Shown: positions 9,947-38,218 of the stretch, piece by piece
Numbering within the stretch: the first letter of the stretch is position 1
How the letters are laid out: every line of letters begins with the position of its first letter
Source: Octopus sinensis
Taxonomy: Eukaryota
Reading direction: 5' to 3'
DNA length: 64,000 bases
Assembly: GCF_006345805.1 (NCBI RefSeq)
Contig: NW_021833942.1
Coordinates: 7,120-71,119, forward strand
Notes under the pieces: model-generated
Told to the model about the DNA's origin: nothing
Databases searched by the model: none
The model's input: only the letters and a program-made list of their open reading frames with translations
Program-made: the position numbers and the translations under genes

Positions 9947-10138
9947 AAGGGAAAGTTTACGAAAATAAACAAAAGACGAAGACAGGTGGTGTACAAAACA
10001 AACAGATGTATTAGTATAAAGCTCAGGAATAGAAAATGTCTTTTATGTTTCGAACCTACGCTCTTCTACAGAAAGGGACACAGAAAAAAACAAGGAGAGA
10101 AACAAGGAGAGAAAAAATGTGTGTAGTGGCTAACGATC
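9947..10138 (-). mobile_element. Penelope-like terminal-repeat remnant carrying a hammerhead motif (family P1)
   Basis: Reverse-complement homologue of 30903-31082 and 38034-38218; abuts (TA)n. Confidence 0.75.
10040..10075 (-). ncRNA. Minimal type-I hammerhead motif, A6U variant
   Basis: cttt-CTGTAGA-A-GAGC gtag GTTC-GAAAC-ATA-aaag. Confidence 0.6.
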
Positions 10139-10622
10139 TCTCTCTCTCTCTCTCTCTCTCTCTCTCTCTCTCTCTCTATCTATATATATATATATATATA
10201 TATACAATGTATATATGTATATATATATGTATAATATATATACGTATATAATATATATTATATAATATGTATACATATATATACATTGTATATATATACA
10301 ATGTATATATATATATATATATATATAATATATATATACATATACATATACATATATACATATATATGTATATGTTTAGGTATATGTATATGTATATATA
10401 TTATATATATATATATATACATATATATATAATATATATATATATATATATATATATATTATATATATATGTCCTTATGTATATATGCGACCGATACAAT
10501 AAGAACTGTGGTCGATTCGTTCGACTAACATCCTTCAAGATGGTGACCCAGCATGGTCACAGTCTATTGACTGAAACAAGTAAATGATAGAAGTCAAAAC
10601 TATAGTTAATAATACCTGAAAT

Positions 10623-10653
10623 CCGATCGTTTCAGCATTAAACGTTGTCAGGG
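10623..10653 (-). ncRNA. Degenerate hammerhead-like motif
   Basis: cc-CTGACAA-cgtttaatgct-GAAACGATC-gg; G8 mutated and stem II poor. Confidence 0.3.
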
Positions 10654-11148
10654 CTAATATAAACTCATCTATTTCTCGATATAAATATTCATTCATTGAT
10701 TGTTTATATAATTAGATACATGTTAAATATTTTGTCCGATACTTTCACAAATTAGTTCATTTGGTTCATAGTTATGCATCGATTGACTTAATTTAAATTT
10801 CAAATAAATTTTAGTGTTTTAGCATTTATGTCTTTACTGAATTATATAAACAAACCATATTTTGCCCCTGTATTTTCCTCCTGCAGCCCTGTGTATTTTA
10901 ACAAGTTTCCCGGCTGTTTGTTTTACATTCTGTCGCTCAGATCGTCTCATTAATGAAAACTCAAACACTATTCATCGATCCATCAATAGCATTCCACTCA
11001 CCATTAACCCACACATCGCAATCCAGTTTTGGAATTTTTCCTTTCTGATGAATGATTCCTTTTTTTCTGTTCTTATTTGTTCTCTTTAAGTATTTTGACG
11101 ATCAAAATCGTAACAACCCAGTGAGATTTACACGCACACACATGCAGT

Positions 11149-11212
11149 CACACACACACACACACACACACACACACACACACACACACACACACACACA
11201 CACACAAACACA
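11149..11212. repeat. (CA)n microsatellite
   Basis: Seen directly. Confidence 0.97.
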
Positions 11213-11351
11213 CAAAGGCACGCACAGACACAAATCACTTGCTTACATTAACAAATGGGGAATGAGGGAGAAGCGGTCCGTAATATTGGGAAAGGAAAAG
11301 CCAGAGCGTAACGAACTGGAGAGGACTGAGCAACGGTATATATATATATAT

Positions 11352-11688
11352 AGGCGCGTGGCTCAGTGGTTAGAGCGTCGAGCTTACGATCGTGAGGTTA
11401 TGAGCTCGAATCCCGGACCGGGATGCGTGTTGTGTTCTTGAGCAAGGCACTTTATTTCACGTTGCTCCAGTTCACTCAGCTGTAGAAATGAGTTGCGACG
11501 TCACAGGTGCCAAGCTGTATCGACCTTTGTCTTTCCCTTGGATAAACATCGGTGGCGTGGAGAGGGGAGGCCGGTATGCATGGGTGACTGCTGGTCTTCC
11601 ATGAAACAACCGTGCCCAGACTTGTGCCTCAGAGAGTAACTCTCTAGGTGCAAACCCATGGTCAGTGTCTGACCGAAGGGGGTCACTA
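11352..11688 (+). mobile_element. tRNA-derived SINE family C, full length, in a (TA)n tract
   Basis: A box tggctcagtgg, B-box-like gctcgaatcc, CORE-like gtgttcttgagcaaggcactt; (TA)n on both sides. Confidence 0.85.
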
Positions 11689-11806
11689 CTATATATATAT
11701 ATATATATACCGTTTCAGGAATGTTCCAGGAATTCAACAATTACTACTACCATCCACAGCAAGCGATTGACCATTTAACATACTACTGACATGCGACTCC
11801 CACATA

Positions 11807-12008
11807 CTTCTTCTTCTTCTTCTTCTTCCTCTTCTTCTTCTTCATCTTCTTCATCTTCTTCATCTTCTTCTTCATCTTCTTCTTCTTCAGCTTCTTCTTC
11901 CTTCTTCTTCTTCTTCTTCTTCTTCTTCTTCTTCTTCTTCTTCTCTTCTTCTTCTCTTCTTCTTCTTCTTCTTCTTTTTTTCTTCTTCTTCGTTTCTTCT
12001 TCTTCTTC
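11807..12008. repeat. (TTC)n microsatellite
   Basis: Seen directly; explains the poly-K/E/R/S/F ORFs. Confidence 0.97.
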
Positions 12009-34650: not shown

Positions 34651-35612
34651 ATGCAGAATTATACGAAGGTTCTCATGTTACTAGATGACTGATGTGGCGT
34701 CAGAAATGATCAGTCTCAATCACAAAACTCGACGATTCATTTCCTTTTCCTATCAAATGATATGATGTTCTTGTTTCTTCTCTATCACTCCTTCTTCAGT
34801 ATTACTCTCTAACGGAATTGTTTCACTTCAGGTTATCTCCTTCAAGTTATTTTTGCATTAAAATTGCAAATGGAGTGTTTTTTAAAAAAAATTTTTGTTT
34901 TTTAACTCCCAACGTTAGACATCTCAGACGAATTATTTTTTGCTCATACATCTTTCTTGGAATGATTAATGCCGTTTCATCTTTATTTAAAAGCTACTTC
35001 TTACTACTCGCTTTCACCGGAAAGACTCAAAGCATATAATGAAGACATCATTAGATAAAAGAAATTAATCATCCGGCTTAGATTTGCTGAAAAATCTCAA
35101 ATCTCTCTTCAGCCAAAATTAACAAAATATTAATTAAAATGTTAATTATCATCAATAAATATAATAGAACTTCCAGAAAAAAACCATGACGTGCTCAGTG
35201 GAGCAAATAGCAAAGAACCGTGATTCAACTGCCATTCTTATCGAGTATTTTCATATATTTTCCACTATTTAATCTCTCCGAACATCCAAAATTCTTCCTT
35301 ACTTCTTCTCATTTTCTGACAGCGCCTTTCATCATGATGATTATAACTCTTCATAAATCACTACTTCTTTCCTTGTCTCTTTCCTTTTTATTTATTACCT
35401 CCGCCTTAGCGAAGGCAGAGGTATTGTTTTCATTCATGTTTTTGCTTTTTATATTTTCCCGCTTAATTCGTTTCTGATAATTTTTCTTTACCTTACTCTA
35501 TTATATTTTCTTTTTCTTTCACTTCTCGTTTTTCGTTCTTCCCTCTACCACCTTTTCCATATATCATTTTCACCACAAACTTTCCAAAAATCATTAACAC
35601 ATTTTTTAAGCT

Positions 35613-36215
35613 TTATTATTATTATTATTATTATTATTATTATTATTATTATTATTATTATTATTATTATTATTAACATTATTATTATTATTAACATTAT
35701 TATTATTGTTATCATTATTATCATTATTATTATTATTCATTATCATTATTATCATTATTATTATTATTATTTTTTATTATTATTATTATTATTATTATTA
35801 TTATTATTATTATTATTATTTTATTATTATATTATTATTATTATTATTATCATTATTATTATTATGATTATTATTATCATTATTATTATTATTATTATTA
35901 TTATTATTATTATCATTATTATTATTATTATTATTATTATTATTGTTATTATTATTATTATTATTATTATTATTATTGTTATTATATTATTATTATTATT
36001 ATTATTATATTATTATCATTATTATTATTATTATTATTATTATCATTATTATTATATTATCATTATTATGATTATTATTATTATTATTATTGTGTATCAT
36101 TATTATTATTATTATTATTATTATTATTGTTATTATTATCATTATTATTATTATTATTATTATTATTATTATTGTTATTATTATTATTATTATTATTACT
36201 ATATTATTATTATTA
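35613..36215. repeat. (ATT)n microsatellite, ~600 bp, imperfect
   Basis: Seen directly. Confidence 0.98.
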
Positions 36216-37099
36216 GTTATTTGTGACTTTGTATTTTAGGTTTGAAAATTTGCTTCCAGCATGTTTACAATTTTCGTTTCATGTTATTTATCTTTCACCA
36301 TATTAGTCAATCGTCTGCTCATTCATTTTGTCACCTAGTTTCACCCCAACCTTCTTCACTCACTCGTCTAAATTTACCTTCTCTCTATTCGCCTTCCTTT
36401 CTTTATCTCGCTATCTCTGTGTATTCTTTTTCCTGAAGTCTGTAACCAGGCTGCTCATAAGCATTATCATTCAAGTTTTCACAATATTTATCTTCCCATC
36501 TTCAATTTTATCTCTCAAAATTTGCCATTATTTTGTTTCACCTCCGGCAATATATGTCTCTATAGCAATCTATTTGTCGCTCTGTTTGTCAAAATATTCA
36601 TCAAACCATTTGTTTTTTCGTCTGCCTGGTTGTCCGCTTTCAGGATCTCGTCACAGATAACGTTATTACATGCCATTTTTAGATTTTAAACACGCCTAAA
36701 GGGAGTTGTCAAAAACTAATTACAAGGATAGTTAAGTTGGTCAAGGTTTTCAAAGTGACTCCATTATACATGTGAGACCTGAAAAGAATTAATTTTTCAT
36801 TTATTAAATAACATTGCTCAAACTAACATCTTGTTGGTTTCATAACTTTCTATCTTTCACACACACACACACACACACACACACACACACACACACACAC
36901 ATACACATACACACACACACACACACATATATATATATACACATATGTATGTTCGCAGATATATACACGTATATATATATATATATATACACATAAACAT
37001 ACATATCTATCTATCTGTCTATCTATTTATCTATCATTCTACTTATCTATGTCTATTCACACACACATACATACACCACACACATAAATATAGATATAG

Positions 37100-37160
37100 G
37101 ACCCTGTCGGTTACGAATGACCATAGATTGTATCTAGGAAGTTCCTCTCGGAGGCATGCA
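37100..37160 (-). mobile_element. Short 3' tail fragment related to SINE family C
   Basis: Reverse complement tgcctccgagaggaacttcctagatacaatctatggtcattcgtaaccgacagggt resembles 11624-11685. Confidence 0.55.
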
Positions 37161-37785
37161 TACATATATATATATATATATATATATATATATATATATA
37201 TATATATATATATACATATATTTATACACACACACACACACATATATATATATATATGTAAATATAATATCTAGTTATACATTATATGTATAAATAATAT
37301 ATATATATACATATTTATACATACATACCATTATGTATATATATATATATATATTATATATATATATATATACATACACAGATACATACACCACACACGT
37401 ATATATGCGACAATTAATTTGGCTTTTCTAATCGAACAAATAAGAACTAATACCTTACGCAGACTAACGTATGAATACTAACCCCATTGCCACCACCACC
37501 ACCACCACCACCACCACCACCACTACCGCCACCGCCGCCGTCATCGCCAACTCCCACCACCATCAGCAGAATTTTTTGTATTGAAATGATAATGAGAAGA
37601 AAATTCATTAGGGGTAGAGAACCCCTATTAATAATTATTATTATTATTATTATTATTATTATTATTATTATTATTATTATTATTATTATTATTATTATTA
37701 GGGGTAGAGAAACCAAATTGGTACAATTCGAATGAAAGCATGCTGTGGGAAGCGATTCCAATCATTGTTCAGTATCATGAAGACA

Positions 37786-37823
37786 GTCGATACGTTTCGT
37801 TTGCATTAGACCTCTTCAGCGAT
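37786..37823 (-). ncRNA. Degenerate minimal hammerhead motif, canonical core
   Basis: CTGAAGA-G-GTctaatgcaaAC-GAAACGTA; stems I and II imperfect. Confidence 0.4.
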
Positions 37824-38033
37824 GAATTGTCTTACTAAAACTCATCCTGGTAAAATATGGCAATATAAACACTTTCAAAATATAGTTTTTGAGTGATGCT
37901 TTCTGCAACATTAACCTGAGCTCCGAGAGATTTAAATCCCATACGTAATGAACAGAACATGATAATTCTTATCAACAGAGCTAGTGTCTGTTGATAATTC
38001 CAAAATACGTGTTTAAATATGTGTGTCTGTGAT

Positions 38034-38218
38034 TGATCGCTAGCCACTAACCATTTTATTTTATTTTCTCTATCTGCTTATTACTGTGTTCCTTTCTGTC
38101 GAAGAGCGTAGGCTCGAAACATAAAAGACTTTCTCACTTCCCGAGCGTTAAACTAATACATCTGTTTGTTGTTTACACACCTGTCTTCGTCTTCTGTTTT
38201 CTTTTGTAAATTCCAACT
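38034..38218 (+). mobile_element. PLE-like remnant family P1
   Basis: Homologous to the 30903 copy; followed by (TA)n. Confidence 0.75.
38092..38127 (+). ncRNA. Minimal type-I hammerhead motif, A6U variant
   Basis: cttt-CTGTCGA-A-GAGC gtag GCTC-GAAACATA-aaag. Confidence 0.6.

What the first reader, a model, noticed from the sequence alone, without database searches (positions are those of the whole stretch)
10040..38127. Repeat family with an A6U hammerhead core (CUGU-N-GA) that varies at the free position 7
Seen: three copies (10040-10075 minus, 30958-30993, 38092-38127) read CTGT[A/G/C]GA-A-GAGC gtag G(C/T)TC-GAAAC(G/A)T-H, with stem I cttt/aaag (one mismatch in the 30958 copy). The core differs among copies only at position 7, the one unconstrained core base, while the normally invariant A6 is U in all three. 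Known: Penelope-like elements carry minimal type-I hammerheads, often with an extra base after A9 and a palindromic stem III, and some cleave as dimers. Inference: a family-wide non-canonical ribozyme core rather than decay.
Basis: partly seen in the sequence, partly recalled or inferred. Interest (0 to 1): 0.75.

Follow-up and report, generated by a model that had tools for sequence, protein, structure and literature searches.

The report
Penelope hammerhead with fixed A6U core
These three repeats are leftover ends of a jumping gene with about 15,000 copies in this genome, whose self-cutting RNA motif has one normally fixed letter changed family-wide while the rest stays conserved, so it is likely a slowed-down rather than dead ribozyme, but cutting is untested.

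Summary
Real, and family-wide. The three copies are ~190-200-base 5'-truncated ends (pLTR) of a Neptune-like Penelope retroelement; full-length copies carry the motif in both pLTRs around an RT + GIY-YIG ORF. The genome holds 15,455 exact core matches, only 562 without U6. Among 69 copies picked by a flank alone, subfamily-level variation across the 36 hammerhead columns falls only on N7 and H17, the two free positions (0 of 34 constrained columns vs 32 of 107 flank columns, p=8e-5). U6 is derived and old: the oldest lineage already has it (13 of 14), while a sister family (6,250 matches) and 41 of 42 hammerheads beside related elements elsewhere keep A6. So: a conserved Penelope minimal hammerhead with a fixed A6U, not decay. 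Cleavage is untested; published position-6 mutants cut poorly, and copy ends show no cleavage footprint (nor do A6 controls). U6 is predicted to add an 'off' hairpin. No natural A6U found in the papers searched, but Lunse 2017 could not be read. This scan noted the same variant before, in this and other genomes.

The parts
9947..10139 (-). Copy 1: 5'-truncated pLTR stub of the Penelope-like element, ending in (TA)n
   Evidence: Local alignments to genome copies, 88-89% identity to the nearest references; ends approximate
10040..10075 (-). Hammerhead motif, copy 1: C3 at 10071, U6 at 10068, N7=A, H17=A at 10044; G16.2>A breaks the stem III palindrome; G-U wobble in stem II
30881..31081 (+). Copy 2: 5'-truncated pLTR stub
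   Evidence: 89-91% identity to the nearest references; ends approximate
30958..30993 (+). Hammerhead motif, copy 2: C3 at 30962, U6 at 30965, N7=G, H17=U at 30989; ACGU palindrome intact; C-A mismatch at 2.2/1.2 in stem I
38030..38218 (+). Copy 3: 5'-truncated pLTR stub, ending in (TA)n
   Evidence: 85-87% identity to the nearest references; ends approximate
38092..38127 (+). Hammerhead motif, copy 3: C3 at 38096, U6 at 38099, N7=C, H17=A at 38123; G16.2>A breaks the stem III palindrome

Best explanation
The motif is the minimal type-I hammerhead in the pLTR of an abundant Neptune-like Penelope retroelement whose whole lineage carries U instead of A at core position 6, and it likely still works as a slow, dimer- or protein-assisted self-cleaving RNA rather than a dead one. 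Shown: element identity, sense orientation in both pLTRs, family-wide and derived U6, and conservation of every constrained position across subfamilies. Inferred: two motifs pair through the ACGU palindrome to build stem III and cut after GUH; U6 lowers the rate, both by weakening the U-turn and by a predicted U4-G5-U6 / A15.1-C15.2-G16.2 'off' hairpin; most RNA therefore stays uncut (or is cut and re-ligated) and is reverse-transcribed into (TA)n targets from a start about 100 bases downstream. The three window copies are dead 5'-truncated stubs.
For: Full-length copies have the motif twice, 4.5 kb (L264) and 4.2 kb (L265) apart, around an ORF with RVT_1 (E 7.8e-8), the DKG motif, a C-x4-C-x2-C linker and a GIY-YIG domain (E 0.0013, below the curated cut-off). 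U6 in 14,893 of 15,455 exact matches. In 69 flank-ascertained copies only N7 and H17 vary at subfamily level, H17 is never G, and 43 of 69 keep a fully intact motif; Fisher p is 1e-5 to 6e-4 across four thresholds. The oldest lineage has G10.2 with U or C at 11.2 and a GUC triplet, as outgroup motifs do, and is already U6 in 13 of 14 (1 G, 0 A; 5 of 5); the later families have A10.2-U11.2, so stem II stayed paired after U6 arose. One old copy has a compensated stem I pair (L257). Logan contigs from three other species labels show no letter change of 5% or more at position 6, only at H17. A6C natural hammerheads keep low activity (PMC3088659 section 8; PMC7151607). A Penelope hammerhead that cuts only with its protein, and is not needed for insertion in vitro, is published (PMC11167929).
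Against: No cleavage data. Mutations in the CUGA turn gave low activity and no rescue in a deep scan of another hammerhead (PMC9901934, passages). The active dimer scores -9.9 kcal/mol against -23.2 for the best dimer fold and -8.4 per monomer for the off hairpin (no tertiary terms). 26 of 27 upstream pLTRs span the uncut site (hand count), and (TA)n junctions show no sharp peak at the cut. Conservation could reflect protein binding instead of catalysis; loop 2, which catalysis should not fix, is also invariant in the younger subfamilies. One site staying U is weak evidence by itself, since about 70% of flank columns also never changed at subfamily level. Subfamily columns are not independent, so the Fisher p overstates certainty.
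Confidence: 0.55

Rival explanations
1. Catalytically dead, structurally kept: A6U killed cleavage, and the hammerhead-shaped fold is retained as a binding or folding element for the element's RT/endonuclease or as part of the internal promoter.
For: Copies are made from RNA that spans the uncut site. Hammerhead mutants did not affect insertion by the Anolis element in vitro (PMC11167929). CUGA-turn mutants have low activity (PMC9901934). Loop 2 is invariant in younger subfamilies. Other pLTR blocks are also conserved, though shorter.
Against: The only two variable columns are N7 and H17, exactly those free under catalytic constraint (1 in 630 if two of 36 columns were drawn at random), and H17 moves among C, A and U but never G, which is the NUH cleavage rule.
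Confidence: 0.3
2. Neutral relic: a founder carried a broken hammerhead, and the apparent conservation is the low divergence between a few master elements.
For: Only about five or six subfamilies are sampled; columns share ancestry; elements without canonical hammerheads proliferate well (PMC8557442, passages).
Against: 0 of 34 versus 32 of 107 columns; the motif is unchanged from the old subfamily to the youngest while RT identity falls to about 78%; loose ends of Logan contigs pile up at the 5' edge of stem I and just past its 3' strand.
Confidence: 0.1
3. Fully active variant: something in this RNA or its protein compensates for A6U, giving rates like the A6 sister family.
For: The U6 family outnumbers the A6 families found by a looser pattern (15,455 vs 6,250). 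A6C hammerheads recover activity in Mn2+ (PMC7151607).
Against: No second core change is seen; the deep scan found no rescuing double mutant in the CUGA turn (PMC9901934).
Confidence: 0.05

Closest known systems
Minimal hammerheads (min-HHR) of metazoan Penelope-like elements (Cervera and De la Pena 2014, PMC4209133)
   Same: Type I layout in pLTRs, sense to the ORF; extra base after A9; G10.1-C11.1; palindromic 15.2/16.2 with no stem III; thousands of solo copies. The Acropora digitifera Neptune entry in Fig. S3 has nearly the same stem II and GUC triplet as the oldest lineage here.
   Different: All 56 motifs in Fig. S3 have A6, and the descriptor (Fig. S7) fixes cuganga, so it could not have found this family. 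The core variant reported there is U3-A8.
A6C hammerhead of phage Bcep176 (Perreault 2011, PMC3088659; Naghdi 2020, PMC7151607)
   Same: Natural substitution at core position 6 that keeps low activity.
   Different: C rather than U; a single phage motif with full stems, not a state fixed across a retroelement family of over 15,000 copies.
Poseidon element hammerhead of Anolis (Frangieh 2024, PMC11167929)
   Same: Penelope pLTR hammerhead; RNA copied uncut; no transcript ends seen at the cut site.
   Different: No position-6 change is described; there the motif overlaps the ORF start, here it lies some 800 bases upstream of the ORF.
Short-stem-III hammerhead variants of Penelope elements that cleave as dimers (Lunse et al. 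2017, PMC5785218)
   Same: By title and by the summary in PMC6765202: Penelope-linked, palindromic short stem III, dimer cleavage.
   Different: Paper not held; whether its alignments include U6 motifs is unknown.
Neptune clade of Penelope-like elements (Craig 2021, PMC8557442)
   Same: C-terminal GIY-YIG, CX2-5CxxC linker, (TA)n targets, partial-tandem pLTRs.
   Different: No named Neptune reference was put in the tree; Nematis shares the linker.

Membership tests
Penelope-like element (EN+) | Single ORF with RT and C-terminal GIY-YIG endonuclease | tested here: met
   RVT_1 E 7.8e-8; GIY-YIG E 0.0013; homologs with RVT_1 and GIY-YIG at 51-66% identity; copies examined carry frameshifts
Penelope-like element (EN+) | ORF flanked by direct pLTRs, with many 5'-truncated solo ends | tested here: met
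   L264, L265 have the motif at both ends; 5' ends scatter along the pLTR in 92 copies
Neptune clade | CX2-5CxxC linker between RT and endonuclease; (TA)n insertion bias | tested here: met
   C-x4-C-x2-C before the GIY-YIG; copies end in (TA)n
Neptune clade | Groups with named Neptune references on an RT tree | not tested
   Tree holds only unnamed relatives
Minimal PLE hammerhead | Stems I and II pair, with covariation across families | tested here: met
   90% of cells paired, 7 of 8 pairs with two-sided change in a hand-picked 17-row alignment; some rows were chosen by patterns that favour pairing, and most two-sided stem I changes come from outgroup rows
Minimal PLE hammerhead | Extra base after A9, G10.1-C11.1, palindromic ACGU, NUH triplet | tested here: met
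   64-68 of 69 at each of these columns, H17 U31/A37/G0
Canonical hammerhead core | CUGANGA, with A at position 6 | tested here: not met
   U6 in 14,893 of 15,455; 66 of 66 flank-ascertained copies with a base there
Hammerhead ribozyme | Site-specific self-cleavage after H17 | not testable with these tools
   Genomic 5'-end footprint inconclusive, also in the A6 control; only contigs, no raw RNA reads

The most novel reading that the evidence does not exclude
A6U is a recurrent, selected dimmer switch in Penelope hammerheads: U6 pairs with A15.1 to fold the core into an off hairpin, so the RNA survives as a template and is cut only when a second copy or the element's protein opens it. It arose independently here, in a related element from a metagenome contig (L279, with U3-A8 as well) and, per unchecked scan notes, in shark genomes, and A6-fixed search descriptors have missed this whole class.
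Probability: 0.2. Interest if true: 0.75.

Novelty: new variant of a known kind. Interest (0 to 1): 0.5.

Why it matters
What Penelope hammerheads do for their elements is an open question. This genome holds a natural pair, a U6 family and an A6 sister family with the same stem II, both highly amplified, which makes a direct test of cleavage rate against transposition possible. If U6 motifs cut, the 'invariant' core is looser than descriptors assume and ribozyme counts in animal genomes are too low. If they do not, selection keeps a hammerhead shape for a non-catalytic job.

Tried and rejected
Rfam: whole window gave only microsatellite-driven miRNA hits among the 150 of 155 listed; neither the U6 copy nor an A6 sister copy matched a hammerhead family, so uninformative. 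Cleavage footprint in 5' ends: L033 has an upstream pLTR that begins 2 bases after the predicted cut, but it is 1 of 27. One search showed about 11 of about 50 distinct (TA)n junctions at the first base after the cut, but this site has TA microhomology; in the GUA subfamily, where that is separable, about 4 of 30 start there, about 7 one base later and the rest elsewhere; the canonical A6 family shows the same smear (about 11 and 12 of about 45). All hand counts from listings. Rejected as evidence either way; cleavage followed by circularisation would also leave seamless junctions. A6 revertant subfamily: not seen; non-U bases are C67/A24/G9 of the first 100 against a neutral 56/21/23% (differs through a G deficit, not an A excess), and A6 copies have unlike flanks. 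In the old subfamily 21 of 100 are non-U (C15, A6), somewhat above other T sites; unexplained. Several hits are not U6 hammerheads but stem II of another family read out of register (L106, L107, L127, L133). Expression: no RNA holder listed on record; guessed-RNA contigs were not used as evidence. Viral contigs held no relative. The search of earlier findings by sequence returned nothing.

Full report
Observation. The three 36-mers are present as described (raw sequence), and a search with up to five mismatches finds no fourth copy in the window. Each sits in a stub of about 190-200 bases that ends in a microsatellite, 85-91% identical to the nearest genome copies tried. None is intact: copies 1 and 3 have lost G16.2, copy 2 has a stem I mismatch. 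My own relaxed hammerhead descriptor therefore misses all three.

Copy number and position 6. The window lies in a 2.72-Gb animal genome (G000). The 25-base core pattern with N at positions 6 and 7 has 15,455 exact matches and 0 for the reversed control. Only 562 have a base other than U at 6; the first 100 of these are C67, A24, G9, the scatter expected of mutation after insertion (neutral spectrum). So the first refutation test, a consensus with A6, fails.

The element. Three of the first 30 loci carried a GIY-YIG fragment upstream on the same strand. Extensions gave RT, thumb, a C-x4-C-x2-C linker and the endonuclease. L264 and L265 are two-pLTR copies with the identical U6 motif at each end; the L265 ORF matches RVT_1, and its best homologs (51-66% identity, one at 41%) include proteins named from a shark, a ray, corals, snails and a sea urchin. 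Linker and (TA)n targets fit the Neptune clade as described in PMC8557442 (passages read); I did not test this against named references.

Is the motif under selection? Copies decay neutrally once inserted, so the test is variation between master lineages. I picked copies by a downstream flank only (14,862 matches), fetched 90 of the first 100 listed places (92 matches), kept the 70 that extend past stem I and dropped one local duplicate. In these 69, the 36 hammerhead columns have a minor allele of 10% or more at two places only: N7 (U40, A11, G10, C6) and H17 (A37, U31, never G). Flanks, without the pyrimidine tract and the anchor, have 32 of 107 (p=8e-5). These are the two positions that hammerhead chemistry leaves free. 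Caveats: columns share ancestry, loop 2 is invariant too, and all 90 places come from one chromosome arm. Logan contigs from four runs (three other species labels) agree: the only listed change in the motif is H17, and loose ends gather at the motif's edges; N7 is not listed there either, so absence at position 6 is only moderate evidence.

Origin of U6. A looser A6 pattern has 6,250 matches, mostly a sister family with the same stem II, a 3-base loop and homologous downstream sequence. An older subfamily (891 matches) is U79, C15, A6 of 100. The oldest lineage, with G10.2 and a GUC triplet, is U6 in 13 of 14. In 93 loci of related elements from metagenome and genome collections, a descriptor with position 6 free found 42 plus-strand motifs, 41 A6 and one U6, with 0 in reversed controls. 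All 56 motifs in Fig. S3 of PMC4209133 are A6, but its descriptor demands A6. On an RT tree of 38 rows the U6 label needs two changes: this genome's clade and L279. Rows without a motif hit or with under 180 aligned residues were left out; labels come from the motif on the same contig, the L349 label probably belongs to a neighbouring element and the L234 label is inferred. So U6 is derived, predates the family's radiation, and stem II changed from G-U/G-C to A-U afterwards without losing pairing.

Mechanism. Like other Penelope minimal hammerheads, the motif has no stem III of its own and would need a partner through ACGU (PMC4209133, text parts 1-2 and supplement read). Position-6 changes slow cleavage: A6C gives under 0.1 per minute (PMC3088659, section 8) and recovers in Mn2+ (PMC7151607, parts 1-2); CUGA-turn mutants were low in a deep scan (PMC9901934, passages). 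Folding adds a U6-specific feature: U4-G5-U6 can pair with A15.1-C15.2-G16.2 and extend stem II over the core; mean probability 0.34 in 80 U6 contexts and 0.00 in 2 A6, 6 C6 and 19 sister-family contexts. This is a prediction without tertiary terms. Most insertions span the uncut site, as reported for the Anolis element, whose hammerhead needs protein to cut and is dispensable for insertion in vitro (PMC11167929, parts 1-2). Junction tests for a cleavage footprint were inconclusive in the U6 and A6 families alike. I favour a slow but working ribozyme (0.55) because variation obeys the NUH rule; a dead fold kept for protein binding remains open (0.3).

Novelty. Penelope hammerheads and A6C are known. 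No natural A6U hammerhead turned up in searches or in passages of PMC6155905, PMC12192606, PMC11014351, PMC13481778, PMC13282606 and the first part of bioRxiv 10.64898/2026.07.22.740005; figures and sequence logos are not searched. Lunse 2017, the likeliest prior source, is not held. Earlier notes of this scan describe the same variant in this genome and in others, including sharks; they are unchecked and came after my analysis, except that they widen the recurrence idea. Verdict: new variant of a known kind, interest 0.5.

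Noticed in passing
window 12168-12216 (+), core starts at 12176: A second hammerhead-like motif with a U3-A8 core, 3-bp stem I, 4-bp stem II and a palindromic stem III; a similar stretch lies in L208 (83% over 136 bases) and L080, so it is a repeat family.
   Followed up: partly
L279:2787-2830 (metagenome contig JAAUXV010067574.1): Related Penelope element (RT 48% identical) with a U3-G5-U6-C7-A8 hammerhead just after its ORF; a separate U6 origin on the tree, single copy.
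   Followed up: partly
L262:7000-8900 (G000:C5, about 121.298-121.300 Mb): Four U6 motifs at 510-base spacing, the unit being pLTR plus the start of the 5' region; a retrozyme-like tandem and a natural dimer construct.
   Followed up: partly
L110, L118, L123, L126, L128: Another repeat family with a CUGUUGA core-like run and GAAACGUA near its (TA)n end but no pairing next to the core in stem I; not resolved as a hammerhead.
   Followed up: no
window about 9770-9945, with further hits near 13600, 27300, 30100, 40700, 48200, 48750, 51400, 54900, 58000: A different dispersed repeat next to copy 1, SINE-like by recalled resemblance only.
   Followed up: no
old subfamily, listing: Position 6 is non-U in 21 of 100 old copies (15 C), more than most other T sites; may mean position 6 was relaxed in some old masters.
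   Followed up: partly
L033 (reverse strand) 4030-4200: An inverted, hairpin-bearing end of another repeat abuts the upstream pLTR, which starts 2 bases after the predicted cut.
   Followed up: no
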